64,000 nt of DNA from an uncultured Victivallales bacterium (GCA_964609395.1 CAZSRU010000001.1:7324-71323), one strand, 5' to 3'; positions 21,051-62,465 are shown, counted from the first letter of the stretch. A program made the numbers and translations. The notes: a model not told the origin generated them from the letters alone.

Positions 21051-21817
21051 TTATCGATGGTTCGCAGATCCGTCACCTTTCTCTCTCCCAGAATGGTGAT
21101 GAGTACTGCCTCCGTATTGGCCGTGCCATCCGTGCCGGCGATCTGCACACCCGTTCCGAAACGCTGTATATCGGCCTTCATGGCCGTTTGCATGGCGCCG
21201 GCCACGCTCTCGGCGCGTTCCACGCCCAGCCCCCATACTGAGCGAGATGTTTCGGAGTTGACGACCGTCTGCTGTGCAAGGACCGCCGTGATGAGAATGT
21301 CGTTGTCGTGACCGGCGAGCAATTTTGCAATGCCCTCCCATAGTCGATTTTCTTTCGGGTTCTCCCAATCTGCCGTTCCTTGAATGAACAGCGATTTGGT
21401 TTGCAGGATGATGGTGAGACCGTCTTCAATCATGCGGATGAGCACCCGGTCTGGCAAACCGTCGGGGTTGGTATTGCTGCTGGCACGGATTTCGACGATC
21501 ATCTGCGGCACCATTTCTGCCATTTCCTCGAGCGTCAGGAATCGGAGCGTCTGCTCTTCCCCCGGGGTTTGAGACAAGCCGTCGGCGTCCACTATCGGTG
21601 TGTCCTCCCTGATTAGAAACGGCTCTAATTGCTCGACCCCGCCGAGTGCGCCGCGCATGGCTCCGATCATGGGAGACAGTTTCTCGCTCTCCATGTCAGA
21701 AAAGGCAATCAGCATGACAAAGAAACAAACCAGAAGGGACATGCAGTCCCCGAAAGTCATCATCCATGCAGGACATCCCTTGGGCTTCGAAGAAGGTGGT
21801 GCTGCGCTACGTTTCAT
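21026..21817 (-). CDS. motB: Flagellar stator protein MotB (Asp-containing TM plug region; degenerate C-terminal PG-binding domain)
   Basis: PAWMMTFGDCMSLLVCFFVML matches MotB TM with the conserved Asp; follows motA. Confidence 0.8.
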   Translation of the reverse strand: MKRSAAPPSSKPKGCPAWMMTFGDCMSLLVCFFVMLIAFSDMESEKLSPMIGAMRGALGGVEQLEPFLIREDTPIVDADGLSQTPGEEQTLRFLTLEEMAEMVPQMIVEIRASSNTNPDGLPDRVLIRMIEDGLTIILQTKSLFIQGTADWENPKENRLWEGIAKLLAGHDNDILITAVLAQQTVVNSETSRSVWGLGVERAESVAGAMQTAMKADIQRFGTGVQIAGTDGTANTEAVLITILGERKVTDLRTIDKWPTGIWQ

Positions 21818-25802: not shown

Positions 25803-26431
25803 TGTTGTCTTGCCTGATTACTGCTGGTGCCAGCCTTCTCGTCTTTCTGTTTACGAATGAGATCACTCCAGGCTACAGCATGTTCGATGCCATTGTCGCC
25901 CAGCGCGACGGCGGCATCCATAATGGCCCCCGCCTGGCGGTCTGCCAGATTGTATAGAATGCGTGCCGCCTGATCATTTTCCATTTCAGTAAGCAGTCTG
26001 GCGGCATTCTGTGCATCCATTTTGGCGTAGAATTCAGCCAGTTTCCGGGTATTTATCTTCTCTGCTTCATCAAAGGCCTTGAAATGCTTCTCCAGCGCTT
26101 GCTCAGCCGATGTAAGCTCATCGCGCATCCGCTGTAATAGAATTTCCTCCTGGCGGACACGGGCCTCACGATTGTCGAGTTGCTCTTTTTGCCGATTCAT
26201 TGCCTCCTGACGGGCACGAATTTCCTCCAGCAGAACGTCGACCGCCTGGCTTTGTTCGGAAAATATGCTTGATCGCGAGTCGCGAGATTGAGCCTTTGCG
26301 GCCTCTTCCACGTCGGGGTCGGTTTTCGAGGAATCCGCGTCAGCGCTCAGGCGTCCTGTTGCGTAGATGGTTGCGAGCATGCTTAGGGCGGCGGCGCAGA
26401 GCATGCAAACAAAAACAAACAGACCTTTCAT
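25799..26431 (-). CDS. MgtE-N-like flagellar protein (YlxF/FlbB-position protein between fliJ and fliK)
   Basis: Signal/TM N-terminus, coiled coil, C-terminal motif ARLLTEMENDQAARILYNLADRQAGAIMDA typical of the MgtE_N/MotE family. Confidence 0.6.
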   Translation of the reverse strand: MKGLFVFVCMLCAAALSMLATIYATGRLSADADSSKTDPDVEEAAKAQSRDSRSSIFSEQSQAVDVLLEEIRARQEAMNRQKEQLDNREARVRQEEILLQRMRDELTSAEQALEKHFKAFDEAEKINTRKLAEFYAKMDAQNAARLLTEMENDQAARILYNLADRQAGAIMDAAVALGDNGIEHAVAWSDLIRKQKDEKAGTSSNQARQQ

Positions 26432-32301: not shown

Positions 32302-32631
32302 TTAGTTACCTTTTATTGCCTTTCGAATTCCTGCATATTTGCGCGATAAAAGGTCGGCGGATGTCACATAAAGCAACTGGTTTTCAGACATCGCGGCAAA
32401 TTCACGTTCCAAGCTGACCGGGGAGGCGGAGGAGTCCTTCTTTATGGTAGGGTTGAATGGCCCGGCCTCGGGGGTGCGCTTTTGGACGGCAGACTTAAGC
32501 TCGTCGATAAAACTGACGTCACTGCGCTGGTAGCCCGGTGTGTTTACGTTCGCAATATTGCTGGCCAGCGCCTGGCCTCGCAGTGCTGTCGCGTCTAGGA
32601 TGCGGTTCAGAAGTAATGTCACATCGTTCAT
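32302..32631 (-). CDS. flgB: Flagellar proximal rod protein FlgB (start moved to MNDVTLLL ATG 32631; the longer ORF would read through its own promoter and the upstream stop)
   Basis: LLNRILDATALRGQALASNIANVNTPGYQR matches the FlgB N-terminus. Confidence 0.85.
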   Translation of the reverse strand: MNDVTLLLNRILDATALRGQALASNIANVNTPGYQRSDVSFIDELKSAVQKRTPEAGPFNPTIKKDSSASPVSLEREFAAMSENQLLYVTSADLLSRKYAGIRKAIKGN

Positions 32632-32644
32632 GCTTGCCAGTATA

Positions 32645-32660
32645 AGCACCCTGCGTGCCA
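32645..32660 (-). promoter_or_regulatory. sigma54 promoter TGGCACgcaggGTGCT immediately upstream of flgB (-12 C is 15 nt before the ATG)
   Basis: Exact GG-N10-GC spacing with a TGGCAC -24 element; just downstream of the EBP gene stop. Confidence 0.6.
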
Positions 32661-32668
32661 TAGGCAAG

Positions 32669-34153
32669 TTACAGACCAGCCGGCAGGGAGCCTTCCTCGC
32701 GGTAGCGATTGAGCTTGTTTCGCAGCGTGCGGATGCTCACACCGAGCAGATCGGCCGCCTGGTTGCGCTGCCCATCGGTTTTTTCCATGGCGCGCAGGAT
32801 GGTTTGCCGTTCCAGCGCATCCAGGCATAGCGTCGTGTTGGCTGGGGAGGGGACCGCGCTGTCCGGGGCACATTCGCTCGCTGGCTTGCTTTCGGCGGGA
32901 GGCGTATGGGGGGGACTCTGCGTGGCCGGTTCCAGGATGGCCGAGTTCGCTCGTGTGCAGGTGCTGCCGTGCACTTCTGGCGGTAGCATCGCTGGCGTCA
33001 GTTCCGGCCCCTTTTCCATGACGCAGAGACGCTCAATCAGATGTTCCAGTTCGCGTACATTACCCGGCCAGGTGTAGCGGCACAGGATGTCGAGTGTGTC
33101 CTGGCGGAACCGCAAACCGTCGGTTTTGCCAGTCAGATTTCGAAGGTGCCGTTTGAGAAAGTTGTCTGCCAGCATCGGGATGTCCTCTGGCCGCTCGCGC
33201 AAGGGTGGCACATGGATGGGGACGACATTGAGCCGGTAGTATAGATCCTGCCGGAAGCCGCCCTCGCGCACATAGCTTTGCAGATCGCGGTTCGTGGTGG
33301 CAATGATCCGGCATTCCGCGCGCAGCGTTCGGCTTCCGCCAACACGTTCGAACTCACGCTCCTGAATCACGCGCAGCAGCTTCGCCTGCAGACCGAGCGG
33401 CATCTCGCTGATCTCGTCCAGCAGCAACGTCCCGTTGCCCGCGAGTTCGAAGCGTCCCGGGCGCCGGTTGATTGCCCCTGTAAAGGCCCCCTTCTCATGC
33501 CCGAAAAGTTCACTGTCGGCCAGCGATTCCGGTACGGCCGCGCAGTTCATACGCACAAAAGGACGTTTGCGGTATTCCCCGAGTCCGTGGATGGCCTGGG
33601 CTACTAATTCCTTACCCGTACCGCTTTCGCCTGAGATCAGTACCGTCGAGGAAGAAGCGGCGACGCGTTCAATCTGCTCGATCAGCTTTTGCATGGCGAC
33701 GGTTTGGCCGAGCAGGCGTTTTCCCTTTGGCATCGACCAGCCGAGCTCTTCCTTGAGATAGTCGTTTTGCGCATTGAGCCGCACCCACTCCTTTGCCCGG
33801 TTCAGGACGACTTCCACCTGCTCCGGTGAGAAGGGCTTCATGAGGAAGTCGATCGCTCCCAGTTTCATCGCTTCCACGGCTTGCTCCACGGTGCCGAAGG
33901 CGGTGACCATGACCGTCAGGGTCTCGATACCCGCCTCCTGCTTCCAGCGCAGCAGGTCCATGCCGCCTAGAACCGGCATTTTGATGTCGACGAAGGCCAT
34001 GTCGAAGTCGCGTTCTTCCATCAGTTTCTGTGCCTGTGCCCCATTACCAGCCTGCACCACCTCAATTCCAGCACGTGTGAGGGTTTCCACCACAAATTCG
34101 CGCATCAGTATGTCATCATCAACCACAAGCACGGTTTCAATACTGGAGATCAT
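32669..34153 (-). CDS. sigma54-dependent response regulator (FlrC/FleR-type: receiver + AAA+ + HTH)
   Basis: Receiver domain, GESGTGKE Walker A, GAFTGA-type sigma54 contact loop, C-terminal Fis-like HTH. Confidence 0.9.
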   Translation of the reverse strand: MISSIETVLVVDDDILMREFVVETLTRAGIEVVQAGNGAQAQKLMEERDFDMAFVDIKMPVLGGMDLLRWKQEAGIETLTVMVTAFGTVEQAVEAMKLGAIDFLMKPFSPEQVEVVLNRAKEWVRLNAQNDYLKEELGWSMPKGKRLLGQTVAMQKLIEQIERVAASSSTVLISGESGTGKELVAQAIHGLGEYRKRPFVRMNCAAVPESLADSELFGHEKGAFTGAINRRPGRFELAGNGTLLLDEISEMPLGLQAKLLRVIQEREFERVGGSRTLRAECRIIATTNRDLQSYVREGGFRQDLYYRLNVVPIHVPPLRERPEDIPMLADNFLKRHLRNLTGKTDGLRFRQDTLDILCRYTWPGNVRELEHLIERLCVMEKGPELTPAMLPPEVHGSTCTRANSAILEPATQSPPHTPPAESKPASECAPDSAVPSPANTTLCLDALERQTILRAMEKTDGQRNQAADLLGVSIRTLRNKLNRYREEGSLPAGL

Positions 34154-35427
34154 GCTTCCACTCCTGTTTTGGGTAATTCAACACTAAATAGACTGCCTCT
34201 GCCGGGTTCGCTGGAGATGTTGATCTCGCCACCGTGGATATCGATGATTTTGCGGGTGAGCGATAAGCCTAGGCCGGTGCCGCCTTCCTTGGATGTAAAG
34301 AAAGGATCAAACACTTTGGACACAAGCAACGCATCCATGCCGCACCCGTTGTCGCGCACATGCAAGGCGACCGTGTTGTGGCTATCGGTGGCCGATATAT
34401 GGACGGTGCCGGAGGCGTCGCAGGCCTCAATGGCGTTGATTCCCAGATTGAGCAGCGCTTGGGTTATCTGGCGGTAGTCACCGCGGAACTGTATGTCTGG
34501 CTCGGGCGGTGTCATGACGAGACAAACGCGGGTGCGTGTGGCCCGGTCTTCCAGTGTTTCCCGGCAGGATTCGAATACGGCCGCAACGGATACCTGTGAT
34601 ATCTGCAGACGCATCGGGCGTGCATAGGTCAGTAGGTTGGTGATGACATAATTCAGGTTCTGAGCGCCCTCGACGATCCGTTCCGCCAGGCGCAATGGGC
34701 CGGGCATGGTTTCCAGATCCCGTCGCAGCAGCCGTGCAAACCCTTCGATCGTACCCAGGGGATTGCGAATCTCGTGAGCCACGCTGGCTGCCATCTCGCC
34801 AAGGGCGGCAAGCCTCTCCTGGCTTTGGAGGCGCTTTTCCATGCGGCGGAATTCGGTGACATCACGCAGATTGCATATCGCACCCAGAATCTTGCCGTCG
34901 GGTGCGGTTACCGGGGCAAGACTCAGCAGTATTCGTCGCGTTTCGCCCTGCCCATGGCTCGTGGTCCAGGGATGGTCAAGCAATGGCGTGTCGCCGTGGA
35001 GTACCCGCCCCAGGTGTGATTCTGATTCCGGCGCCTGCACGATATGCGAGAACAAGGCATTCTCGATTTCCGGACGCGTTACCTGCAGCAGGCGGCATGC
35101 GGCTGAATTACACCGTTCAATACGCCCGTCCTGGCCGACGACCAACAACCCGTCGGTCAGGCTTTCAACCACGCTTTCCAACCGACTGGAGACCTGCCGG
35201 AGCGCTTGGTTCGTGGCCGTCAACTCGCTGTTACGCTCCTGCAGGGTCTTGTTGGAGCTGGCAAGGTCAGCTTCCAGTGAGCGGTAAGCCTTCTCCAGTT
35301 GGCGGCTTTGGCGCTCGAAGATTTCAAATGCCGACTGCACGGCCGCCAAGGTTCCGTCGTTTTGATTTGAAACCGGAACCGTCGCGGAAGGGGCTAGGGT
35401 ATGGATGGGAAGGTGAGGGGCCTGCAT
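34150..35427 (-). CDS. PAS-containing sensor histidine kinase (FlrB/FleS-type)
   Basis: PAS domain, HisKA (SVAHEIRNPL) and HATPase_c (GTGLGLS) motifs; overlaps the start of the cognate EBP gene. Confidence 0.85.
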   Translation of the reverse strand: MQAPHLPIHTLAPSATVPVSNQNDGTLAAVQSAFEIFERQSRQLEKAYRSLEADLASSNKTLQERNSELTATNQALRQVSSRLESVVESLTDGLLVVGQDGRIERCNSAACRLLQVTRPEIENALFSHIVQAPESESHLGRVLHGDTPLLDHPWTTSHGQGETRRILLSLAPVTAPDGKILGAICNLRDVTEFRRMEKRLQSQERLAALGEMAASVAHEIRNPLGTIEGFARLLRRDLETMPGPLRLAERIVEGAQNLNYVITNLLTYARPMRLQISQVSVAAVFESCRETLEDRATRTRVCLVMTPPEPDIQFRGDYRQITQALLNLGINAIEACDASGTVHISATDSHNTVALHVRDNGCGMDALLVSKVFDPFFTSKEGGTGLGLSLTRKIIDIHGGEINISSEPGRGSLFSVELPKTGVEA

Positions 35428-35429
35428 GA

Positions 35430-35753
35430 TTAATGCTCCTGGGGTACCGGGGTGTCATCGCCGCCGGCACTGATGCGGTATTCACGTTCCTGCACCATCA
35501 GCTCTTCCATCGTCACTCCCAGTTCCTGCAGGGCGCAAAGGGTTGCCGCATTCAGCGGGATTCCGCCGGTGCTTTCGGCCACCTGCCGCAAATGACCAGT
35601 GAGCGCATCGGCGTATTGCTCGGCCTGGCGCAATAACGTTGTCCGATTGCTGCCGCCGGCAATCGATCGGAGCTGTACGTAGATGTCGCGAATGGCTGCT
35701 GCCTGTGTCTTTGCGTTTCTGATTTCAGTCATTAGTTCCATGCTGGGTTCCAA
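35430..35753 (-). CDS. Hypothetical 107 aa helical protein adjacent to the histidine kinase
   Basis: ORF abutting the TPR gene stop and the HK start; no recognisable motif (weak HPt-like GHLRQ). Confidence 0.4.
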   Translation of the reverse strand: MEPSMELMTEIRNAKTQAAAIRDIYVQLRSIAGGSNRTTLLRQAEQYADALTGHLRQVAESTGGIPLNAATLCALQELGVTMEELMVQEREYRISAGGDDTPVPQEH

Positions 35754-37985
35754 TCATAAGGCGGCTGCCCGTGCCCGCATCGAAAGTTGGTCTGTCTTTT
35801 GGATCCAGTCGCGAAGGGCATCGGCAGAAAGGAGGGTGTCGCCAGCCGGTGTCTGCTTATCGGAGATGGCTTGCCGCCCCATCCACGCCATGACGGTTGC
35901 CGCTGGTTCCTTCGCGATCAGTCGCGTAAGCGTCTGTATCCGGTATTGTTCCAGTGGCAACTGCGCTCGCCAGTACGAATCACTTTCCATTTGCGAAAGC
36001 AGTTGGTCAATACGCCCGTAGGCCTCGTTTTGTATCAACCGGTCCATCACGGCATCTGCCGTGGCCAGCATCAGTGCTTTCGGCGGCTTGGCTGGCGCTG
36101 GGCGAGGGTGGACTGTCGGTTGTGTCGCCAGTGCCGTTAAATCGGGAACCAGAATTTCAAATAGCGTTGTCAGCAAGGCGTCGCCAGAAGGTCCGCAGGT
36201 TTGCCGCCAGCGCCTGATGGCTTCCTTGTGCTGGCCTTGCCGCATGGCAATCGCGGCCCACAACGGTGTCGATTCAGGCCAGATGCCGGCCCACTCGGAA
36301 TGGGTGTTCAGCGTCCGTAGTATCTGATCGGCATCGCGGTCGCGCTCCATGCTTAAGAGCACTCGCGCTTGCCCCAGCATGGCTTGAGCCAGGGTTGAAC
36401 TCTTGTCGCCCGCCTTCTGTGAATGTAAGCTTGCCAACAGGATTGCATGCCTGTAATACGTTTCAGCCGCGGCTGGCAGCGAAAGTTCCTCAAGCCGTTG
36501 GGCGGTGATCAGAAGGCCCTCGGAGCTGCGCTCATCCTGCGGGAATCGCATCGTGGCGTCGATCGCACTTCCAACCAGGCCGGCGGTGGCGTTCGGATCC
36601 TTGGCCAGTGCTTTTAAAAGGCTGTGGCGGGCATGGGTGTCCAATGGTTTGTCTGTGTTTAGCGATATCAGTTTGTAGAGATACCGGACCTGTGCATCGA
36701 GATTACCGCGTCTGGCTGCTAGATCGGCTTGCACTTCAAATTCCTTGGCTGGATTCGTCGCCTTGCTGGCTTGCGCCTGCGCTGCTGCCAGATAGCGTTC
36801 GGCTCGATCCAGTTCATCACGTCCTATTGCCGTTCTGGCGGCACGAACCAGGATGTTGTAGGGCTCTGCTTGCCCAGGCTTCAGCATGCCTAGCTGTCGA
36901 TCAAGCGTTGAGAGGAGTTGGCCTACCCGCGCGGTATCGGTTGTGGACGCGAGTTCATGGCCCAGATCGATCAGAGCCGTTTCCTGTAGATGCGTGTCGG
37001 CGAACATCAGCAGTCTGGCAGCGGCGACATCCTCGATGGATCGTTCCTGCCGCAGCAAGGCAAGCAGACGCTGCGCGGCCTGCCGGCGGCCGGGTGCAGA
37101 GGTGTTGTAGGCCGCTCGCTGAAGAGCGGTAATGGCTTGACTCGTGTTGTTGCTTCTGATGGCGATTTGGGCGAGAATGATCTGCGATTCCTGCATTATC
37201 TGCGAGTTGTTGCTTTGCGCCAATGTGTTGGCGTTCTCGGTCAGTTGCTGTTTTATCTGATCCCGTTTCTCACTGGGTGTTGCCCCTTCGAAATGTGAAC
37301 TGAGCGCATCGAACCATTTCTGGTTTGTGTATATCCGCCAAAGCACTCTGGTCTCACCGTGCAATGCCTTGGTTTGCTGTTCCCCGATCTCGGCAGTTGG
37401 CTTGAGCGCACGAAGGCTTGCATAGGCCGGGGCGGCGTACCCAAAGTCAAATAAGACCTGGAATTCGAGCAGGTTCAAGTCAAATGGCAGTTTGCCTTGG
37501 TCGCGAACCCTCGCGAGAATGCGATTCGCATGCTGTAGGGATTGCTGGTCGCGCAGTTTGCTGGCCAGTTGCAGGAAAACCGTTGCCAAATCGACCGCGA
37601 TGCAATCATCGATATCCTGTTTTACAAGCACGTCCGCGTAATTGGCCGCCATGCGATAACGCTGCCAAGCGGGGCGCCAGTTGTCATCTTTTAGCAGGAA
37701 TTTCGTCATGGCCATAATGGCGGTGTTCTTCTGTTTGGGCGTTTCTGCAATCTCAATGGCATCGCTAAAGAAGATGAAGGCCATGAGCGGATCATTCGCC
37801 TTGTCGCGTTTTTCTGCCCACTGTAGCATCAGAACGTCGGCGGGAGGCAGCTCTTGGATGATATAACGATGGACCATCACTCCGGTCATCGAGGTTGTAA
37901 ACGCCAGGCCGATGCCCATCATGGCCAGTGTAAGAAAAAGTGCGGAGCCTTGCTTCGCGCGAGAATGTCTATTGTGTGCTGTCAT
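35754..37985 (-). CDS. Large single-pass membrane protein with extended alpha-helical (TPR-like) repeats
   Basis: 743 aa; one N-terminal TM helix (ALFLTLAMMGIGLAFTTSMTGVMV) then an Ala/Leu/Gln/Arg-rich helical region. Confidence 0.55.
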   Translation of the reverse strand: MTAHNRHSRAKQGSALFLTLAMMGIGLAFTTSMTGVMVHRYIIQELPPADVLMLQWAEKRDKANDPLMAFIFFSDAIEIAETPKQKNTAIMAMTKFLLKDDNWRPAWQRYRMAANYADVLVKQDIDDCIAVDLATVFLQLASKLRDQQSLQHANRILARVRDQGKLPFDLNLLEFQVLFDFGYAAPAYASLRALKPTAEIGEQQTKALHGETRVLWRIYTNQKWFDALSSHFEGATPSEKRDQIKQQLTENANTLAQSNNSQIMQESQIILAQIAIRSNNTSQAITALQRAAYNTSAPGRRQAAQRLLALLRQERSIEDVAAARLLMFADTHLQETALIDLGHELASTTDTARVGQLLSTLDRQLGMLKPGQAEPYNILVRAARTAIGRDELDRAERYLAAAQAQASKATNPAKEFEVQADLAARRGNLDAQVRYLYKLISLNTDKPLDTHARHSLLKALAKDPNATAGLVGSAIDATMRFPQDERSSEGLLITAQRLEELSLPAAAETYYRHAILLASLHSQKAGDKSSTLAQAMLGQARVLLSMERDRDADQILRTLNTHSEWAGIWPESTPLWAAIAMRQGQHKEAIRRWRQTCGPSGDALLTTLFEILVPDLTALATQPTVHPRPAPAKPPKALMLATADAVMDRLIQNEAYGRIDQLLSQMESDSYWRAQLPLEQYRIQTLTRLIAKEPAATVMAWMGRQAISDKQTPAGDTLLSADALRDWIQKTDQLSMRARAAAL

Positions 37986-38781
37986 GCAAATCCAATCCTT
38001 CCCGTCGGCTGGAAACCTGAATGACGCTTAAAAGTTGCGATCGCTCGGCATTCCCTGTCAGGCGCTGACTTTGAATGCGTAGCGTGTCCGGGCTGTCGAG
38101 AACATCGACAAATGTGCCTGCGCCCGCTTCGAAATGCCTCCTGATCGCCGGCGTCTGCGCCAGGATGCAGAGTCGGCCGCCTTGCGCCGAGAGCCATCCT
38201 GCCCATGCGCACAGGCTGCGCATGGCCGTCATGTCGGCCTGCGTCGCGGGGGTCGTTTCAAGCGCAATCCATTTCTCATCGCGGGCGGCACGCAACAAGC
38301 GGGCGGCGTTGCGGGCCGTCAGCGTCCCGCGAAGACGGACGCGACGGAAGCGCCCGATTCGCCGCTCGTTGCCGCTGCCAGATGCTGGCGGATGGGCGGC
38401 TGCCTTTAAAAACATTTTCAGGGTACTTTGCAATTGCTCGGCCTGTACCGGTTTTTGAAGAACGCTGCTGATTGCCAGTGCTTGACGGCGTTCCTCGGAG
38501 ATGCATTCGGTTTCGGCCGTCATGCATACGACTGTGGTTTGATGGCCATTGCTGCGCATTTTCGCGATCACGTCGGTACCGTAGCCATCGGGAAGCCGAT
38601 AATCCATCAGTACCATTTGCGGCCCGAGACGTTCCCAGCTCGCTTCGGCCTCGCTGGCGCACTCGGCAACGTTAACGCTGCATGCCCCAGGAAACCGTTC
38701 CAGGGTTCTGCGCAAGGTGGCGGCCAGCAGTGGGTCGTCCTCCACCAGCAGGATGACGATACCGCACGCATCAGAAGTCAT
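37969..38781 (-). CDS. Response regulator with receiver domain fused to a STAS-like (anti-sigma-antagonist-like) C-terminal domain
   Basis: Receiver motifs (ILLVEDDPLLA, VLMDYRLPDGYG, TVVCMTA); the C-terminal 110 aa loosely match the SpoIIAA/STAS pattern (WIALETTPATQADMTAMRSL...AQGGRLCIL). Confidence 0.5.
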   Translation of the reverse strand: MTSDACGIVILLVEDDPLLAATLRRTLERFPGACSVNVAECASEAEASWERLGPQMVLMDYRLPDGYGTDVIAKMRSNGHQTTVVCMTAETECISEERRQALAISSVLQKPVQAEQLQSTLKMFLKAAAHPPASGSGNERRIGRFRRVRLRGTLTARNAARLLRAARDEKWIALETTPATQADMTAMRSLCAWAGWLSAQGGRLCILAQTPAIRRHFEAGAGTFVDVLDSPDTLRIQSQRLTGNAERSQLLSVIQVSSRREGLDLHDSTQ

Positions 38782-39310
38782 AACTGGCTCCTTCTGTGTA
38801 GCGTGGTATAATCAGCACGATACCGGCGGACAGTACGGCAGAGGGGCTTAGGCCATTGATTTGCTGTATCCATTTGGCCCGGTCCTTGTTGCCGTAGACC
38901 ATCGGGTTGGCGGCAATGCTCTCAAGGGTGTCGCCAGTCTGAACCTCGTAATATTCGAATGCTCCGCTACGCAAAAGACTCAATAAATGGTCTTTTCTCT
39001 TGATTTCTTTCCGACTTTCCTCCAGTTGCTTGTCGAGGCTCTCGATCTGCGCCTTCTGTTCATCTAGTCGGGTGTTCTGGATAGCGACTTCCGTCTGGCT
39101 TTGGCTTAACTGTGCGGTTGTGGCCTGTAGTTGCGTGGTCAGGCGTGTGACCTCTTCAAGCAGGGCTTGCGCTTGAAGGGCTCGCCGCTCCAGTGCGTTA
39201 AGACTGCTGGTGTCTGGCGCATTGGCCGAGGCCCAAAGCGCGACAGAGAGACTCAGGATTACAACGCTGGGTACGATCCATTGACGGTTACATTTTCCGG
39301 TGCCATTCAT
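38771..39310 (-). CDS. Secreted/anchored coiled-coil protein with C-terminal LysM peptidoglycan-binding domain (start moved to ATG 39310, RBS AAGGAA)
   Basis: Signal-anchor, long coiled coil, LysM motif YYEVQTGDTLESIAA...INGLS. Confidence 0.65.
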   Translation of the reverse strand: MNGTGKCNRQWIVPSVVILSLSVALWASANAPDTSSLNALERRALQAQALLEEVTRLTTQLQATTAQLSQSQTEVAIQNTRLDEQKAQIESLDKQLEESRKEIKRKDHLLSLLRSGAFEYYEVQTGDTLESIAANPMVYGNKDRAKWIQQINGLSPSAVLSAGIVLIIPRYTEGASYDF

Positions 39311-39362
39311 ATCGATATTCCTTACCATGTCCGAGCGGAGTCAATCGTGGTCTCGATTTGCT

Positions 39363-39378
39363 AGCAGGGTCTGTGCCG
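39363..39378 (-). promoter_or_regulatory. sigma54 promoter cGGCACagaccCTGCT upstream of the LysM/RR-STAS/TPR operon
   Basis: GG-N10-GC exact spacing; shares the GCTAGCAGGGT core with the fliD promoter; 54-nt leader to a strong RBS. Confidence 0.6.
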
Positions 39379-39423: not shown

Positions 39424-40800
39424 TCAGATAGTTATGCTGTGATCCTTGATTTTTCTTAGCAAGGAACTGCGATGGATTTTTAGAATTTCGGCCGCTTGGC
39501 CGCGATGTCCGCTCACGTCGCGCAAAACACGCATAATCAACTGTCGTTCGCATTCGGCAAGGCTCATGGATGGAATCTCAGAGGTCTGACCGGTGGGGGG
39601 CTGTGTTTTGGCCGGTGTTGCTTGTTTGCCGTTTGGAATGGCAAGATCCTTGGCATCAATCTCGTTGCCTGTACACAGAATGACGCCGCGTTCGATCGAA
39701 TGGCGCAGCTCACGGACGTTCCCTGGCCAGTCATAAGCGCAAAGTGCTTCCATGGCCGCCGTCGTGAATCCACTAAGGTGGCTGCCTGCTGTTTTTTTGT
39801 GATGATTGAGGCACTGTTCCGCAAGCTTTGGAATACTTTCCGGGTGCTCACGCAGCGGCGGCAGGGTCAGGGGGAAGACCGACAAACGGTAATAGAGATC
39901 CTCGCGGAACGTACCATCCTTTACCATTTCCTGTAGATTGCGGCAGGTGGCGGCGACGATGCGCACATCCACCTGAATGACTCGGCTCCCGCCTAAACGG
40001 CGGAATTGCTTGTCCTCGATCACCTTTAGCAGTTTCGCCTGCAGAGCGGGGGCCATATCGCCGATCTCATCGAGGAAAACCGTGCCGCCATCGGCGATTT
40101 CAAGCAAACCGGGTTTGCTGACCTTGGCATCAGTGAAGGCACCTTTCTCATAACCGAAAACCTCGCTTTCCATCAACGGCCCCGGAATCGCCGAGCAATT
40201 GATGTCGACAAACGGCTTCGCGGCACGTGCGCTGAGGCGATGCACGGCAGACGCCATCATTCCTTTTCCAGTTCCGCTTTCCCCTAAAAGCAGCACCGTC
40301 GTGTCGGGGAAGGCGGCAATGCGCTGTACTTTTGTAAAGAGATCACGCAGGGCTCCGCCGCCAATCATCTCGTCGAGCTGCCAGACGTCGCCGCCGGAAC
40401 CGGTCGATAGCCGCGCGAGTCCCTCCACGCGCTCTTCCATGTTGACCGCTTTCTCAACATTACGGATGATTTTCTCAAGTTGCTCGTTTTCGTACGGTTT
40501 AGGTAAGTAGTCGTAGGCCCCGCTGCGAATGGCTTGAATGGCTGATCTGACATCGCTGTGGCCGGTTACAAAAACAACGTAAGCTCCCTTTGATAAGCCG
40601 TTGATCTCTTCAAGGAAATGGAAACTGTCGCCGTCGGGTAATCGCCGGTCAAGAAAGATCAGCTTGAATTGATTATCCTTCAGTCGGCTGCGTGCTTCGC
40701 TTAACGAATCGCAGGCTTTGACGTCGTGGCCTTTGCGCTTTAAAAGGTCAAACATGACCTTGCGCTGGATTTCGTCATCTTCAACGATTAGAATATCCAT
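39424..40800 (-). CDS. sigma54-dependent response regulator (NtrC/FlgR-family, second copy)
   Basis: Receiver + AAA+ (GESGTGKG) + GAFTDA + C-terminal HTH. Confidence 0.9.
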   Translation of the reverse strand: MDILIVEDDEIQRKVMFDLLKRKGHDVKACDSLSEARSRLKDNQFKLIFLDRRLPDGDSFHFLEEINGLSKGAYVVFVTGHSDVRSAIQAIRSGAYDYLPKPYENEQLEKIIRNVEKAVNMEERVEGLARLSTGSGGDVWQLDEMIGGGALRDLFTKVQRIAAFPDTTVLLLGESGTGKGMMASAVHRLSARAAKPFVDINCSAIPGPLMESEVFGYEKGAFTDAKVSKPGLLEIADGGTVFLDEIGDMAPALQAKLLKVIEDKQFRRLGGSRVIQVDVRIVAATCRNLQEMVKDGTFREDLYYRLSVFPLTLPPLREHPESIPKLAEQCLNHHKKTAGSHLSGFTTAAMEALCAYDWPGNVRELRHSIERGVILCTGNEIDAKDLAIPNGKQATPAKTQPPTGQTSEIPSMSLAECERQLIMRVLRDVSGHRGQAAEILKIHRSSLLRKIKDHSITI

Positions 40801-41552
40801 TATGGTGTTGCCCTTTCTGCGGCATCAGACGGCGGCATCGGCATGGTCGGGCAAGATAACGTCACGGTCCATTCGTTTGCTCGGCATGGCGCCAGTTCCG
40901 CTGTGCAATCACCGCCGGTGAGGCGGGCCAGGCGTTGCGCCAACGCAAGCCCCAGGCCGAGGTGGCGTGGTCGTGTTGTGTAAAAAGGTAGAAAAGCCTG
41001 ATCTCGCAGGGCGGCGTCGATGCCAGGCCCCGAATCGGACACGGTCCATGCGATGCCGTCTTCGTTCGCCTGTAGGTGCAGGCCGACAATACCGCGCGGC
41101 ACAGCCTCGCAGGCGTTGGTCAGGAGTTCCTGCAAGGCGATTCGCATGATCGACGGCGCGGCTGTTGCCGCGTCACCCTGTTGGCGGATCTCTACATTCG
41201 GGAAACGGCGGGCTACGGCCGCCATGGCTTCTGCGGTTATGTCGGATACGAACTCTGGCCGAATCGCGGGGTCGCGTTCCCAGTACAGGCTGAATCGATT
41301 GGCCATATCGGTTAGCGAATCACACTCCCGGAGCATTAAGGGAAAGTACTCGCGAAGATCGGGAGCAAGGGCGCTTCCTGCATCGGATTCGATGAGGTTC
41401 ACGGCCCCGCTGATGCCTGAGGCGATGTTCCGCAGACGGTGCCGCAGCACATGCGACATGCGCTCTAAGTCGTCGGTGCTTAAATGGGGTGGAGTAACTG
41501 AAATCATTGTTTTTCTTATACAACTCGTGTCGGGCGGTGTCAAGAAAGTCAT
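40800..41552 (-). CDS. Soluble histidine kinase (FlgS-like, no TM segments)
   Basis: 250 aa; HisKA H-box (SHVLRHRLRNIASG) and HATPase_c (GLGLALAQRLARLTGG). Confidence 0.8.
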   Translation of the reverse strand: MTFLTPPDTSCIRKTMISVTPPHLSTDDLERMSHVLRHRLRNIASGISGAVNLIESDAGSALAPDLREYFPLMLRECDSLTDMANRFSLYWERDPAIRPEFVSDITAEAMAAVARRFPNVEIRQQGDAATAAPSIMRIALQELLTNACEAVPRGIVGLHLQANEDGIAWTVSDSGPGIDAALRDQAFLPFYTTRPRHLGLGLALAQRLARLTGGDCTAELAPCRANEWTVTLSCPTMPMPPSDAAERATP

Positions 41553-41561
41553 TTTTCGTGA

Positions 41562-43475
41562 TCACAGCGTGGCGTGCCACAGGCACAAGTTCACGATCGG
41601 CCATAGTTTCATGGGGTGGACCGTCATGCTGCCGTTCAGCCAGGCATCAACCGCGATCGGGTTGAATAGCGTGTGCCGAAGGGGCGATGTCGCAATTGCC
41701 TCCCTGATCATGGGATTCATCCACGTGTCCATCCAGTCGAAAACAGGCACGGGGAAGCTCATCTTCGGGCGCTGCAGGATCGACGTCGGGACCGAATCGG
41801 TATAGGCGTGGCGTAGCAGCCGTTTGGATTCGATCAGATCCTGTTGTACAATCTCCATCACGTTCAGCCCCTGCGCGGCAATCGCACCAGCCGGTTGCCG
41901 CCAGTCCAGGCGGTAGGTGTCCGGCAGCGAGAATGCAAAATCAACCAGCCGGTGATCGGTAAACGGGACGCGCGCCTCGACGGATGCGGCCATGGAACTG
42001 GAGTCCACCCGCAGGAGCAAGCCTTCGAGGTTGACGCGCAGGTGGGCAAGCATGATGCGGTCCAGGGTGGATGCATCCGGGTGGCGGCTGTAGAGTTGCT
42101 GATAGAAGGCTCGGATGGCATGGTCGTTGTGCAGGCTGGCCGTGATATCCGGATGCATCCAGAGTTGCTTCTCCGGCGTGGACATCCAGGTGTTCAGCAG
42201 CAGGTGCTGGGTGGCCAGATCCGGCAGGTGCGCTTGTCCATAGCCGCGCAGTAGCGCCTGATCGGTCGCATTCATACCTGACTCAGGCTTTGGTGAGCGC
42301 GAAGCCCGGTCGAAGTCATGGGCCGCGAAATAGGCAATCGTGTAACCGCCGAAGATCTCGTCGGCACCTTCGCCGCTCAAGGCCACCGTGTATTCCTCGC
42401 GCAGTGCTTTTGAAAGCATGTAGATCGGCACTTCGTTAGGGGTGGTGAGAGGGAGACCGTTCTGGCGTATCAAAAAATCCCACAATGCGGGGTAATCGGC
42501 CGAGTCAAGCGTGATTTTGCGGCACTTCATACGGTAGGCGTCAGCCGCCTCTTTCACATACGGGAATTCGTTGAACCCGGGTTGCGCGTAGCCCACGTTA
42601 TAGGCGTGAAAGTGGTTGTCCGTGAGGGTGCTGGCCTGTTCTGCAATAATGGTTGAATCCAGGCCGCCGCTGAGAAAACCGCCCAGCGGAACGTCGCTGA
42701 TCAGGCGCAGCCGTACCGCCTCCTTGATCAAGTCGCGCGTTTCTTCGGCCGCCGCTTCCAGTGAGAGCCGTGATTTGTCCTGCGGTGCAGGGCAGGATGG
42801 TGCCCAATAGCAGCCGCCATGCTGCCCGCCGCTCGCGTCGATGCGCATCCAGTGGCCGGGTTCCAGCAAGTGCACGCCGCTGAGCAGGGTATCCTGCCCG
42901 AGATTAACCCGTATGGTGGATAGGTAGTGGGAGGCGGCCGAAGCGTCAAGTGCGGGTTTTTCCGGCAGCAGGGCCAGCAATGCGCGCATCGACGAGGCAA
43001 AACAGAACGTCTTGCGTTGCTGTGCCCAGAATAGCGGCTTTACGCCCAGTCGGTCGCGGGCCAGGAAGAGTGCGCGGTGGCGGGGGTCATAAATGGCGAA
43101 GGCAAACATGCCGAGGAGTCGGTAAATGCAGGCCGTGTCCCACTCCAGAAAGGCGTGCAGCAGCACTTCGGTGTCCGAATGGGTTTGAAATGCGTGTCCC
43201 GCGGCTTGCAGCTCGGTGCGCAATTCCCGGTAATTGTAAATCTCTCCATTAAAGACGATTACCGATCCGGTTTGCGGATCCACCAGCGGCTGGTGCCCGC
43301 CGTCGATGTCGATAATGGCCAGGCGTCGGTGCGCAAGCCCTATGCGGTCTGTGTGGAATTGCCCCTGATCGTCCGGGCCGCGCAAGGCCATGCAATCGGC
43401 CGCATCCTGAAGCCGCGGCAGCCACTGCTCGCAAGGAAGTGCGGTGGGGGAGGCGTAGCCGGCAATACCGCACAT
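41562..43475 (-). CDS. Asparagine-synthetase-family glutamine amidotransferase, PseA-like candidate flagellin-glycan modification enzyme (start moved to MCGIAG ATG 43475, RBS AGGAG)
   Basis: N-terminal Ntn Cys (MCGIAGY), PP-loop SGGLDSS; adjacent to fliD and flagellin. Confidence 0.75.
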   Translation of the reverse strand: MCGIAGYASPTALPCEQWLPRLQDAADCMALRGPDDQGQFHTDRIGLAHRRLAIIDIDGGHQPLVDPQTGSVIVFNGEIYNYRELRTELQAAGHAFQTHSDTEVLLHAFLEWDTACIYRLLGMFAFAIYDPRHRALFLARDRLGVKPLFWAQQRKTFCFASSMRALLALLPEKPALDASAASHYLSTIRVNLGQDTLLSGVHLLEPGHWMRIDASGGQHGGCYWAPSCPAPQDKSRLSLEAAAEETRDLIKEAVRLRLISDVPLGGFLSGGLDSTIIAEQASTLTDNHFHAYNVGYAQPGFNEFPYVKEAADAYRMKCRKITLDSADYPALWDFLIRQNGLPLTTPNEVPIYMLSKALREEYTVALSGEGADEIFGGYTIAYFAAHDFDRASRSPKPESGMNATDQALLRGYGQAHLPDLATQHLLLNTWMSTPEKQLWMHPDITASLHNDHAIRAFYQQLYSRHPDASTLDRIMLAHLRVNLEGLLLRVDSSSMAASVEARVPFTDHRLVDFAFSLPDTYRLDWRQPAGAIAAQGLNVMEIVQQDLIESKRLLRHAYTDSVPTSILQRPKMSFPVPVFDWMDTWMNPMIREAIATSPLRHTLFNPIAVDAWLNGSMTVHPMKLWPIVNLCLWHATL

Positions 43476-43491
43476 GGGGACGCTCCTGCCG

Positions 43492-44967
43492 TTACTTGCT
43501 GCCGTTGAGCTGGCCCAACAGGAATTCGAACCCCGACTGCATTTTGCCGATGGCCTCATCCATGGCACCGAACTGACGCCAGAGCATCGCTTCTTTCATC
43601 TCCAGTTCCCGCGTCATGCGGTCAATCCGTTCGTCCTGGCGAGTGATCTCATCATTGATATTCTCAATGCCGACATCAATCCATCCGTCGAGCTCCGAGG
43701 CGTAATTCTTGGTTTCCGTATAAATGGAAAGGGCGATGCCGCCTTCGCGTACGCCGGCCTGTGTTTCGGAGGGAACGCCCCGGAAAAGATTTTCAACCTC
43801 AGTGGGATATTGCTCCAACATGGCATCGAGGCGTTCTTCGTCGATAATGGCCAAGCGGTTCTGTTCTCCCTGGGTCCAGATACCGATGTGTTGGAGAGAA
43901 TCCATGACTCCCTGTGCCCCGTTGAACGAATACCCTGCATTATCAGCCGTGTGGGTACTGTTCATCAGTTGCCCGGCCAACCCACGCAATTTATAGGTGA
44001 TTTCGCGCATCATACTGTTGTCTTGCAGCATGCCAGGTAAAGGGTTCGATGGATCGCTGCGATCCCAGGTCCCGTAGAACTCATTGACTTCCGCAGCCGT
44101 GTTGTAGGCTTCTATGAAGGTGTTGATCGACTCCTTGATCGCGGCATTATCCCGCCCCACCTTGATTTCGCTGTATCCGGTGTCGTACAAGTTCAGCGTG
44201 ACGCCGTCGACAATATCGGATAGACCGGTGTTGGACGAGCGGGTAACCGTGGCACCATTCACCTTGAATTCGGCATTCTGGGCGGATAGCAATTCGTTGG
44301 TGACCGTGCCAAAGGCGTCCAGGACGCCGAGGCTGAGCAGAGGGGTTCCGGCCGTGTCGGAGATGGAAATGGTATCCGAGCCAGTGTTGACACGCTGAAG
44401 GACGAGCCGATTATCAAGGATCGATGCGGTCACTTGGTCGGCTTCCGGCATAAGCTCGGTGGCCGCATTGATTTTGTCGCGTAGCGAGGACAGGGTTTCC
44501 GTATTACTGATGGTAAAGGTCTGGCCGCCGATGGCGAACTGGTCTCCGAGGCTGACGCCGGCAATGGTGGTCAGGAGCGTGGAGGAGGTCACGGGGGCCC
44601 CCCCCGAGTCGGTCAGTCCGGTAGCGGAGGCAATCGTTTGTGCGCGAGCCAGTTGCGTGACTTCTATCGTATAGGTATTGGCGGCGGCATTGGCGGCGGC
44701 GGTGGCGGTCGCCACTGAGGAATCGGTGCTAGTGGACGCCATTTTACGCCAGACATCCATCCAGCGCAGGCTGTCGGAGGCGCGCGTCAGGGCGCTAAGG
44801 TTGTCCTTTACATCAATCCATGCCGTGACCTTATCATTGCGCAAGGACTGTTCGTCCTGCACTTTTTTAACGCGGCTGCCTTCCATCTCCATGATTTTGG
44901 CGATGGTGGCACCTACATCGAACCCGGAAGCGAGTCCGCTGATACGAAAATCGGGTGTAACACTCAT
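43492..44967 (-). CDS. fliD: Flagellar filament cap protein FliD
   Basis: 491 aa; N-terminus ISGLASGFDVGATIAKIMEME and coiled-coil C-terminus typical of FliD. Confidence 0.9.
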   Translation of the reverse strand: MSVTPDFRISGLASGFDVGATIAKIMEMEGSRVKKVQDEQSLRNDKVTAWIDVKDNLSALTRASDSLRWMDVWRKMASTSTDSSVATATAAANAAANTYTIEVTQLARAQTIASATGLTDSGGAPVTSSTLLTTIAGVSLGDQFAIGGQTFTISNTETLSSLRDKINAATELMPEADQVTASILDNRLVLQRVNTGSDTISISDTAGTPLLSLGVLDAFGTVTNELLSAQNAEFKVNGATVTRSSNTGLSDIVDGVTLNLYDTGYSEIKVGRDNAAIKESINTFIEAYNTAAEVNEFYGTWDRSDPSNPLPGMLQDNSMMREITYKLRGLAGQLMNSTHTADNAGYSFNGAQGVMDSLQHIGIWTQGEQNRLAIIDEERLDAMLEQYPTEVENLFRGVPSETQAGVREGGIALSIYTETKNYASELDGWIDVGIENINDEITRQDERIDRMTRELEMKEAMLWRQFGAMDEAIGKMQSGFEFLLGQLNGSK

Positions 44968-60837: not shown

Positions 60838-60853
60838 TGGCACGCATATTGCA
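60838..60853 (+). promoter_or_regulatory. Consensus sigma54 promoter TGGCACGcataTTGCA upstream of rpoN, preceded by a ~60 nt AT-rich tract
   Basis: Perfect match to TGGCACG-N4-TTGCA; 53 nt upstream of the rpoN ATG. Confidence 0.7.
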
Positions 60854-60904
60854 TTGGTAATCATCAACGAAGTGTTGTTAACTACTCTTTGATTGGTGGG
60901 AACC

Positions 60905-62443: not shown

Positions 62444-62465
62444 GCATTTGGAGAACGCTGGCGTG

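What the first reader, a model, noticed from the sequence alone, without database searches (positions are those of the whole stretch)
35430..38781. Uncharacterised regulatory module (receiver-STAS regulator, TPR membrane protein, small helical protein) embedded between two sigma54 two-component systems upstream of flgB
Three co-directional, overlapping genes sit between a FlgS/FlgR-like pair and the FlrB/FlrC-like pair that precedes flgB. They are a response regulator whose output looks like a STAS/anti-sigma-antagonist domain, a 743 aa single-pass membrane protein with TPR-like helical repeats, and a 107 aa helical protein. The layout suggests a partner-switching or checkpoint module feeding into the sigma54 flagellar cascade. 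None of the three is a known flagellar gene.
Basis: partly seen in the sequence, partly recalled or inferred. Interest (0 to 1): 0.65.

Follow-up and report, generated by a model that had tools for sequence, protein, structure and literature searches.

The report
Sigma-54 signalling operon with receiver-STAS regulator
The three flagged genes are real and belong to a conserved six-gene, sigma-54-driven signalling operon of uncultured Verrucomicrobia/Lentisphaerae-type bacteria. The operon contains a cell-wall-binding protein, a receiver fused to a STAS domain, a membrane-anchored TPR protein, a small helical protein, a kinase and a sigma-54 activator. In this genome it sits inside the flagellar gene hierarchy, and its function has never been studied.

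Summary
All genes lie on the minus strand. They are REC-STAS (37969-38781), a 743-aa protein with one N-terminal membrane helix and TPR repeats (35754-37985), and a small helical protein of about 103 aa (35430-35741).

A sigma-54 promoter (YGGCAY-N5-CTGCT) precedes the LysM gene in all 11 lineages examined, and a similar element precedes flgB. LysM–REC/STAS–TPR–small protein–PAS kinase–sigma-54 activator is therefore one operon. The small protein is missing in one lineage.

In three distant lineages the unit lies with no flagellar genes and no first kinase/regulator pair within 10 kb. It is therefore a self-contained signalling module tied to the second kinase/regulator pair, and it is wired into flagellar control only in some clades.

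I found no support for classical partner switching. My best guess is that the kinase phosphorylates both receivers and that the REC-STAS protein feeds back on the kinase or the small protein. The TPR and LysM proteins are probably periplasmic.

Verdict: new variant of a known kind. Interest 0.5.

The parts
39363..39378 (-). Sigma-54-type promoter (CGGCACAGACCCTGCT) in the 95-nt gap between the first sigma-54 activator and the LysM gene. It is the predicted start of the six-gene operon.
   Evidence: The strict pattern YGGCAYN5YTGCH occurs 8 times in the window against 1.5 expected, and 0 of 100 shuffles reach 8. An equivalent element lies in front of the LysM gene in L003, L005, L007, L091, L092, L093, L094, L095, L096 and L099, and also in the near-duplicate loci L097 and L098.
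38771..39310 (-). Gene X: a secreted protein with a signal peptide (…WASA|NA), a coiled coil, a C-terminal LysM domain and a conserved Y-x-[F/L/W]-COOH tail. An alternative start lies at 39328.
   Evidence: Pfam LysM scores 25.9 bits against a cut-off of 20.9, and 6 of 7 orthologues hit LysM. An N-terminal hydrophobic segment or lipobox is present in orthologues. The C-terminal tail is conserved.
37969..38781 (-). REC-STAS response regulator (270 aa). The receiver is aa 10-121 (nt 38419-38754), the STAS domain aa ~141-240 (nt 38062-38361), and an extra conserved C-terminal helix aa 244-264 (nt 37990-38052).
35754..37985 (-). 743-aa TPR-family protein with a single N-terminal signal-anchor helix (aa ~12-39, nt 37869-37952). 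Its most conserved core is aa ~480-600 (nt 36186-36548), with invariant E499, Y511, R541, R557, W576, Q585, E588, R591 and R592.
   Evidence: The hydrophobic helix is present in all 45 aligned homologues, and the charge rule gives N-in for 35 of 45. Pfam TPR models hit about 24 of 45 family members. The family profile matches consensus TPR proteins at E=3e-30 and CpoB at 3e-7. Only 53 relatives exist among 1.84 billion representative proteins.
35430..35741 (-). Small acidic protein (103 aa, pI 4.9), probably a three-helix bundle, with the invariant C-terminal motif E-R-E-x-R. Its stop lies 2 nt from the PAS kinase start.
   Evidence: Alignment of 10 orthologues. No Pfam or NCBIfam family. The only PDB profile hits are designed helical bundles. 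It is absent from locus L095.
34150..35427 (-). Soluble PAS histidine kinase (HK2), always the fifth gene of the unit.
   Evidence: Pfam PAS_4, HisKA and HATPase_c hits, and no hydrophobic helix. It is 45-68% identical across the distinct lineages (93% in the near-duplicate L097).
32669..34153 (-). Sigma-54-dependent response regulator (RR2), the last gene of the unit.
   Evidence: Pfam Response_reg, Sigma54_activat and HTH_8 hits. It is 58-76% identical across the distinct lineages (95% in the near-duplicate L097), including the non-flagellar loci, and is the best conserved member.
32646..32660 (-). Second sigma-54-type element (TGGCACGCAGGGTGC) lying 8 nt after the RR2 stop and 13-14 nt before the probable flgB start (ATG at 32631).
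   Evidence: Equivalent elements sit after RR2 in L003 (16198), L007 (16032), L092 (16148), L097 (15482), L098 (10016) and L099 (12395). In L097 the element stays next to flgB despite an insertion of about 160 nt after RR2.
39424..41552 (-). Upstream pair: a minimal histidine kinase (HK1, 40800-41552, with DHp and catalytic domains only) and a sigma-54 response regulator (RR1, 39424-40800). They are linked to the unit in flagellar-type loci only.
   Evidence: invariant VLRHxLxN H-box. The pair is present upstream in the window and in 9 of the 12 other loci: L003, L005, L007, L091, L092, L097, L098 and L099, plus an RR1 fragment in L093. It is absent in L094-L096.

Best explanation
The flagged genes are the accessory half of a self-contained operon transcribed from a sigma-54 promoter. 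The gene order is LysM protein (X), REC-STAS, TPR protein, small helical protein, PAS histidine kinase (HK2), sigma-54 activator (RR2). The family is confined to uncultured bacteria that NCBI names Verrucomicrobia or Lentisphaerae. In this genome the operon is the middle unit of a co-directional flagellar array: fliD, an amidotransferase, HK1 and RR1, then this operon, then a second sigma-54 promoter and flgB-flgC-fliE-fliF.

Proposed mechanism (inferred, not shown). HK2 is the only kinase always present, so it most likely phosphorylates two receivers. RR2 is the output and drives sigma-54 promoters such as the one before flgB, and possibly the operon's own promoter. The REC-STAS protein is a modulator. 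Its STAS domain has lost the serine switch, so its availability would be set by aspartate phosphorylation of the fused receiver. This is the logic of PhyR and of the REC-RsbW regulators LvrC and TciR. The STAS domain would then bind a GHKL-type ATPase domain, most plausibly the catalytic domain of HK2, as SpoIIAA binds SpoIIAB and CheS binds CheA. Alternatively it binds the small helical protein whose gene is translationally coupled to HK2. Either way it would gate or feed back on RR2 activation.

The LysM and TPR proteins are predicted to form a complex outside the cytoplasm. It would be bound to peptidoglycan through LysM and anchored in the inner membrane through the TPR protein's N-terminal helix, and the conserved C-terminal Y-x-F tail of X may dock in the TPR groove. 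I cannot tell whether this complex supplies an envelope or positional cue or is simply co-expressed hardware.
For: Shown:
- The gene order recurs in 13 loci.
- A sigma-54 promoter precedes X in all 11 lineages, and a second follows RR2.
- Genes overlap or lie 2-12 nt apart.
- The receiver keeps its phospho-acceptor residues.
- The output domain has a STAS fold but no conserved serine.
- No RsbW or PP2C gene is encoded in the unit.
- The unit persists without HK1-RR1 and without flagellar genes in L094-L096. This leaves HK2 as the only constant kinase.
- The small protein is absent in L095 while REC-STAS is kept, so its partner must be among the constant members.
- HK2 and RR2 are far better conserved than the four accessory genes.
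- X has a signal peptide and a LysM domain.
- The TPR protein is N-in in 35 of 45 homologues.

Precedents from papers:
- The STAS-only protein CheS binds the kinase CheA (PMC12654446).
- REC fused to an RsbW-like domain occurs in LvrC (PMC13269768) and TciR (PMC12826045).
Against: - No binding or phosphotransfer was tested.
- The receiver of REC-STAS is slightly closer to RR1 than to RR2 (25.5% against 22.3% identity) and shares RR1's RLPDG loop. HK1 could therefore be its kinase in flagellar-type loci.
- The TPR topology is a charge-rule prediction, and 7 of 45 homologues point the other way. If the TPR domain is cytoplasmic, it would more likely be the scaffold for REC-STAS and the small protein.
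- No upstream activator site shared by the promoters was found, so it is unknown which activator fires which promoter.
- The model gives no convincing role for the two envelope proteins.
Confidence: 0.4

Rival explanations
1. This is the first reader's reading: a classical partner switch onto a sigma factor. The STAS domain would sequester an anti-sigma factor, for example the small helical protein acting like FlgM. This would free sigma-28 or sigma-54 for flagellar transcription.
For: The STAS fold is confirmed. There is a precedent: the Pseudomonas STAS protein PA3347 binds FlgM under control of the response regulator PA3346 (PMC8256260). fliA and rpoN are both in the window. The small protein is acidic, helical and about 100 aa, like many anti-sigma factors.
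Against: No conserved serine switch. No RsbW-type kinase or PP2C phosphatase in 9 of 10 distinct loci. The small protein has no FlgM or anti-sigma family signal and is missing in L095. The module occurs with no flagellar or sigma-factor genes within 10 kb.
Confidence: 0.15
2. The LysM and TPR proteins are structural parts of the flagellar motor. They would form a periplasmic, peptidoglycan-anchored stator or collar scaffold like PflA/PflB, MotC/MotK or FlcB. In that case only REC-STAS and the small protein are regulators.
For: Periplasmic TPR proteins paired with a peptidoglycan-binding module are a recurring motor scaffold, and they partner FlgY/MotE/FlbB E-ring proteins (PMC13023049). The window has a FlgY-like candidate between fliJ and fliK, with MgtE_N at E=1.5e-4. 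The TPR protein is predicted to be exported and membrane-anchored, and X binds peptidoglycan through LysM. The accessory proteins evolve fast, as motor add-ons do.
Against: Both genes always travel with HK2-RR2, even where no flagellar gene lies within 10 kb (L094, L095, L096). They are never seen apart from that pair. Family profiles hit no solved flagellar scaffold protein, only generic TPRs.
Confidence: 0.2
3. The module is a split FimV/HubP-like polar landmark. LysM would sit outside the cytoplasm and the TPR domain inside. The landmark would recruit the receiver protein and the kinase to the pole to control organelle number or placement, together with FlhF/FlhG.
For: The combination of LysM, a membrane helix, TPR repeats and a receiver recalls FimV-FimL-PilG and HubP (own knowledge). 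flhF and flhG are in the window. One distant locus lies next to pilus/secretion ATPase genes. Seven of 45 homologues have an N-out charge pattern.
Against: No hit to the FimV models of NCBIfam. The majority charge pattern places the TPR domain outside the cytoplasm. The cytoplasmic N-terminal tail is short and is the least conserved part of the protein.
Confidence: 0.1

Closest known systems
STAS anti-sigma-factor antagonists (SpoIIAA, RsbV, PA3347/HsbA) and the STAS-only CheA partner CheS
   Different: The domain is fused to a receiver. It lacks the phosphorylatable serine and has no dedicated kinase or phosphatase. It carries an extra conserved C-terminal helix with invariant E246-R247. Its sequence similarity is below Pfam's threshold.
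Response regulators fused to a partner-switch component: PhyR (sigma-like domain + REC), LvrC and TciR (REC + RsbW-like domain)
   Same: The logic is the same: aspartate phosphorylation of a receiver controls a fused partner-switch module, linking a two-component system to protein sequestration (PMC13269768, PMC12826045).
   Different: Here the fused module is the antagonist (STAS), not the anti-sigma or sigma-mimic part. The target is unknown and may not be a sigma-factor pathway at all.
Sigma-54 flagellar cascades (FlrA then FlrBC in Vibrio, FleQ then FleSR in Pseudomonas, FlgSR in Campylobacter)
   Same: Soluble kinases pair with NtrC-type activators, and sigma-54 promoters lie in front of early and rod genes. 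rpoN, fliA, flhF and flhG sit in the same cluster.
   Different: There are two full kinase/regulator pairs in tandem, with four extra genes inside the second operon. Neither regulator reaches the cut-off of the FlgR or FlbD models. Part of the module exists outside flagellar loci.
Periplasmic TPR motor scaffolds (PflA/PflB, MotC/MotK, FlcB) and LysM-TPR landmarks (FimV/HubP)
   Same: Large TPR proteins that are membrane-anchored or exported, combined with a peptidoglycan-binding domain and encoded in flagellar regions (PMC13023049).
   Different: No detectable sequence relationship beyond generic TPR repeats. The link is to a two-component system rather than to motor genes. The peptidoglycan-binding module is on a separate polypeptide.
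Small trans-acting modulators of kinases or sigma-54 activators (Sda, FliX-FlbD, FleN-FleQ, HrpV/HrpG-HrpS)
   Same: A small protein encoded right next to the kinase/activator pair and translationally coupled to it. This comparison rests on my own knowledge of these systems.
   Different: No sequence or family relationship. The role of the small protein here is purely inferred.

Membership tests
Response regulator receiver (REC, PF00072) | Pfam score above the gathering threshold, and the acidic pocket, phospho-acceptor Asp, Thr/Ser and Lys residues | tested here: met
STAS / SpoIIAA-like fold | A beta-beta-alpha-beta-alpha-beta-alpha-beta-alpha fold that superposes on solved STAS domains | tested here: met
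STAS / SpoIIAA-like fold | Sequence membership (Pfam STAS or STAS_2 above the gathering score) | tested here: not met
   STAS_2 scores 20.6 bits against 29.2, and STAS 15.3 against 22.6. Only 3 and 2 of 26 homologues match at E<=0.01. The profile against PDB sequences finds no STAS. A distant orthologue in L095 has an unmarked STAS_2 hit.
Partner-switching anti-sigma antagonists (SpoIIAA/RsbV type) | A conserved phosphorylatable Ser/Thr at the start of helix 2 (the DSSG motif) | tested here: not met
   The equivalent columns read D-M-T-A, S-E-T-V, D-D-A-A, D-N-N-A, G-E-G-A and so on. No Ser/Thr is conserved.
Partner-switching anti-sigma antagonists (SpoIIAA/RsbV type) | A cognate RsbW-type kinase/anti-sigma factor and/or a PP2C phosphatase encoded alongside | tested here: not met
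   Absent from the window and from 8 other distinct loci. Only L096 has a divergent PAS-SpoIIE-HATPase_c_2 gene.
TPR repeat proteins | Matches to TPR repeat models | tested here: met
   The window protein alone has only ANAPC3 at E=0.04. At family level, about 24 of 45 homologues hit TPR models down to 8e-12. The family profile hits consensus TPR proteins at 2.7e-30.
LysM peptidoglycan-binding domain | Pfam LysM above the gathering score | tested here: met
   25.9 bits against 20.9, and 6 of 7 orthologues match.
HPt phosphotransfer proteins (suggested check for the small protein) | A helical bundle with an invariant phospho-accepting histidine | tested here: not met
   There is no invariant His in 10 orthologues. 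The invariant residues are Y21, R25, L37, E85, R86, E87 and R89. There is no Hpt hit.
FlgM anti-sigma-28 factor (for the small protein) | A match to the FlgM family model | tested here: not met
   No Pfam or NCBIfam hit at E<=0.1-1.
FlgR / FlbD / FlrC-type flagellar sigma-54 regulators | A score above the curated NCBIfam cut-off | tested here: not met
   RR1 scores 314 bits on the FlgR model against a cut-off of 750. RR2 scores 361 bits on the FlbD model against 750. The best matches are generic AtoC/NtrC models, also below cut-off.
PflA/PflB, MotC/MotK, FlcB periplasmic scaffold proteins | Homology beyond generic TPR repeats, and location at the motor | tested here: inconclusive
   Three profile searches of PDB sequences returned no flagellar scaffold protein. 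I could not confirm which of these proteins are in that file. Localisation cannot be tested here.
FimV/HubP polar landmark | Matches to the FimV core or C-terminal models, with LysM, membrane helix and TPR on one chain | tested here: not met
   No FimV model among the NCBIfam hits. LysM and TPR are on separate polypeptides.

The most novel reading that the evidence does not exclude
REC-STAS defines an uncharacterised class of response regulator in which aspartate phosphorylation replaces serine phosphorylation as the switch of a STAS domain. The STAS domain would act inside a two-component system by binding the catalytic domain of its own kinase, or a small kinase- or activator-bound inhibitor. 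This would link a peptidoglycan-anchored TPR/LysM envelope complex to a sigma-54 activator that controls flagellar rod and MS-ring genes. In short, it would be an assembly or envelope checkpoint built from parts not used this way in any studied bacterium.
Probability: 0.2. Interest if true: 0.7.

Novelty: new variant of a known kind. Interest (0 to 1): 0.5.

Why it matters
Flagellar regulation is understood in only a few proteobacterial and campylobacterial models, and nothing is known for the Planctomycetes-Verrucomicrobia-Chlamydiae (PVC) group. This locus shows a tandem arrangement of two sigma-54 kinase/regulator pairs with four lineage-specific genes built into the second operon.

The REC-STAS protein would complete a set. 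Receivers fused to the sigma mimic (PhyR) and to the anti-sigma kinase (LvrC, TciR) are known. A receiver fused to the antagonist has, to my knowledge, not been characterised.

The same six-gene unit also occurs away from flagellar genes. That makes it a portable signalling cassette whose input, possibly the state of the cell envelope, and whose logic could be worked out with purified proteins even though the organisms are uncultured.

Tried and rejected
- **STAS profile against PDB sequences.** It found no STAS protein. Only the fold comparison was informative.
- **Fold searches with the full-length model.** Receiver hits swamped the results and no two-domain REC+STAS structure appeared.
- **AlphaFold-database fold library.** It was not available, so I could not survey how common REC-STAS is.
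- **Word-based homologue searches.** They gave only 3 relatives of the TPR protein and 4 of the small protein. The exhaustive search was needed.
- **Genome scan with the REC-STAS alignment.** The pattern fell in the generic receiver loop and returned mostly unrelated receivers, with only 2 true species hits.
- **Metagenome scans.** The narrower alignment found 3 loci from one metagenome.
- **HPt and FlgM readings of the small protein.** Both rejected.
- **Homology of the conserved C-terminal core of the TPR protein to any solved protein.** None found.
- **Guessing the cognate kinase of REC-STAS.** Receiver similarity was inconclusive: 25.5% identity to RR1 against 22.3% to RR2.
- **Shared upstream activator site in front of the promoters.** Nothing was found beyond the coding sequence of RR1.
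- **Taxonomic names for the window's own proteins.** None is on record.


Full report
**What is there.** The window is a 64-kb flagellar and chemotaxis supercluster from a metagenome contig (JGI 3300020048, 120 kb). It carries che genes, fliOPQR-flhBA-flhF-flhG-fliA, motAB, fliLMN, hook genes and fliFGHIJ. It also carries flgBC, fliD, flagellins, fliW-csrA, a Maf-type gene, fliS, flgFGAHI, flgN-flgK, rpoN and sugar-modification genes.

The flagged interval lies on the minus strand. Read in the direction of transcription, the genes are:
- fliD (43492-44967);
- an asparagine-synthase-like amidotransferase;
- a 250-aa minimal histidine kinase, HK1 (40800-41552);
- a sigma-54 activator, RR1 (39424-40800);
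- a 95-nt gap;
- gene X (38771-39310/39328);
- REC-STAS (37969-38781);
- the 743-aa protein (35754-37985);
- the small protein (35430-35741);
- a PAS kinase, HK2 (34150-35427);
- a sigma-54 activator, RR2 (32669-34153);
- flgB, flgC, fliE and fliF.

From X to RR2 the genes overlap or lie 2-12 nt apart.

**The four accessory proteins.**

*The 743-aa protein.* It has one N-terminal hydrophobic helix, as do all 45 aligned relatives. The charge-difference rule puts the N-terminus inside the cytoplasm, and hence the bulk outside, in 35 of 45, with 7 opposite and 3 ties. About half of the family hits TPR models, and the family profile matches consensus TPR proteins and CpoB. The best conserved part, aa 480-600 with four invariant arginines, has no detectable relative. 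An exhaustive HMMER search of 1.84 billion representative proteins found only 53 relatives.

*Gene X.* It encodes a signal peptide (a lipobox in some orthologues), a coiled coil and a LysM domain above Pfam's threshold. Its C-terminus is conserved as Y-x-[F/L/W].

*The small protein.* It is acidic and has three helix-length segments separated by conserved Gly/Pro breaks. It carries an invariant E-R-E-x-R motif and has no invariant histidine. It has no family, and its only PDB profile hits are designed helical bundles.

**Operon structure.** The motif YGGCAY-N5-CTGCT fits the -24/-12 consensus of sigma-54 promoters. It lies in the gap in front of X in the window (39363-39378). It also lies in front of X in every other lineage examined: L003, L005, L007, L091, L092, L093, L094, L095, L096 and L099.

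In the window the strict pattern occurs 8 times against 1.5 expected, and 0 of 100 shuffles reach 8. Several of these sites lie in gaps just upstream of genes: X, fliD, flgI, rpoN and a flagellin.

A similar element lies directly after RR2 and 12-14 nt before the flgB start in the window, L003, L007, L097, L098 and L099. In L092 it precedes a sugar-modification gene. In L097 an insertion of about 160 nt separates RR2 from this element, and the element stays with flgB.

No terminator-like site lies between RR1 and X, so read-through from upstream is possible. Which activator uses which promoter is not known. A search for a shared upstream site found nothing.

**Conservation and distribution.** The order X, REC-STAS, TPR, small protein, HK2, RR2 is found in the window and in 12 further loci.
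- HK1-RR1 lies upstream in the window-like and Lentisphaerae-like loci.
- flgB follows in the window, L003, L007, L091, L097 and L098.
- flgB does not follow in L005 (Lentisphaerae bacterium RIFOXYA12_FULL_48_11) or L092. L099 ends too soon after RR2 to tell.
- In three distant lineages (L094, L095, L096) the unit has neither HK1-RR1 nor any flagellar gene within 10 kb. It keeps its sigma-54 promoter, and RR2 is still 58-59% identical to the window's RR2.
- L095 lacks the small protein.
- L096 has a divergent PAS-PP2C-RsbW-type gene next to the unit.

HK2 and RR2 are much better conserved than the four accessory proteins. Across the distinct lineages they are 45-76% identical, against 22-55% for the accessory proteins. 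The only organism names attached to any member are 'Verrucomicrobia bacterium' (UBA6015) and 'Lentisphaerae bacterium' MAGs.

**Interpretation.** Three things are shown. The unit is a discrete, sigma-54-dependent, lineage-restricted signalling operon. Its constant core is HK2-RR2 plus X, REC-STAS and the TPR protein. In this genome it is embedded in the flagellar hierarchy.

The mechanism is inferred. HK2 is the only kinase always present, and the small protein is dispensable in one lineage. The simplest model is therefore a branched pathway in which HK2 phosphorylates both RR2 (the output) and REC-STAS (a modulator).

A STAS domain without a serine switch, fused to a live receiver, suggests control by aspartate phosphorylation. 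PhyR works this way, as do the REC-RsbW regulators LvrC and TciR (PMC13269768, PMC12826045). Known STAS partners are GHKL ATPase proteins: SpoIIAB, RsbW, and the kinase CheA for CheS (PMC12654446). HK2's catalytic domain is therefore the most plausible target, followed by the small protein.

X and the TPR protein are probably an envelope complex, and the Y-x-F tail of X may be a TPR ligand. Their connection to the cytoplasmic proteins is unexplained. The cytoplasmic tail of the TPR protein is short and is its least conserved part. I rate the overall model at about 0.4 and the specific STAS-HK2 contact at about 0.25.

**Rivals.**
- *Classical partner switch onto sigma-28 or sigma-54.* The PA3346/PA3347-FlgM system is a precedent (PMC8256260). 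It is weakened by the missing serine, the missing kinase and phosphatase, and the lack of any FlgM signal in the small protein. The small protein is also absent in L095, and the unit occurs outside flagellar loci.
- *Motor-scaffold role for X and the TPR protein.* TPR proteins paired with peptidoglycan-binding modules recur in motors and partner E-ring proteins (PMC13023049). A FlgY-like gene sits between fliJ and fliK here. However, both genes always travel with HK2-RR2 and are found with no flagellar genes nearby.
- *Split FimV/HubP-like landmark.* This needs the opposite topology and has no family support.

**Comparison and novelty.** Every individual part belongs to a known kind: receiver, STAS fold, TPR, LysM, PAS kinase and NtrC-type activator. 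The combination has, to my knowledge and in the literature I could search, not been described or characterised. This holds in particular for the receiver fused to a non-phosphorylatable STAS domain inside a sigma-54 two-component operon with two envelope proteins. I file it as a new variant of a known kind. The organisms are uncultured, so tests will need heterologous or in vitro work.

Noticed in passing
window 60838-60852 (+): A perfect sigma-54 consensus (TGGCACGCATATTGC) lies about 40-55 nt upstream of rpoN itself (start about 60893-60905). This suggests that the sigma-54 gene is autoregulated. A similar element precedes rpoN in L092 (5512).
   Followed up: partly
window 25799-26431 (-): The unannotated 210-aa gene between fliJ and fliK has a sub-threshold MgtE_N hit (E=1.5e-4, 22.7 bits against 25.9). 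With its position, this fits the published criteria for a FlgY/FlbB/MotE E-ring protein (PMC13023049).
   Followed up: partly
window 32631-32669 (-): flgB is probably mis-started in ORF and gene calls. The sigma-54-like element overlaps the annotated 5' end. The likely start (ATG at 32631, MNDVTLLL) is only 13-14 nt from the element, so the flgB mRNA would be leaderless or nearly so. The same spacing is seen in L003 and L097.
   Followed up: partly
L005 6130-6828; L007 6109-7062: In Lentisphaerae-type loci a multi-pass membrane protein with a C-terminal coiled coil lies directly upstream of the sensor-less kinase HK1, overlapping it in L007. It may be a separate sensor subunit. It is absent from the window, L003, L091 and L092.
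   Followed up: no
L096 1513-3669 (minus strand of the locus): A 718-aa PAS-SpoIIE(PP2C)-HATPase_c_2 protein, a typical partner-switch kinase/phosphatase, is transcribed divergently from the module in this one distant lineage. The STAS domain there reads D-E-T-S at the switch position.
   Followed up: no
window 41562-43568 (-), 49057-50871 (+), about 62400-64000: An asparagine-synthase-like amidotransferase lies between fliD and HK1. With it are a Maf/MptE-like gene and NeuB/CMP-sugar genes. Together they look like a flagellin glycosylation island interleaved with the regulators. The amidotransferase ORF as listed starts at a GTG inside fliD, and the public call is 31 aa shorter.
   Followed up: no
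window 20292-21050 and 21026-21817 (-): Two adjacent MotB-like genes (both with MotB_plug, one with a weak OmpA hit) follow a single motA.
   Followed up: no
L097 about 15320-15480: In the 88-95% identical relative of the window, about 160 nt are inserted between RR2 and the flgB promoter. The insert holds a long inverted repeat (GAACGAGAACGGCGACGAGAACGG … CCGTTCTCGTCGCCGTTCTCGTTC). It could be a terminator or a small repeat element that insulates the two transcription units.
   Followed up: no
L094 9494-9509: An additional sigma-54-type element (CGGCACGCGCCCTGCT) lies between the TPR gene and the small-protein gene in this locus. It suggests an internal promoter for the small protein, HK2 and RR2.
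   Followed up: no
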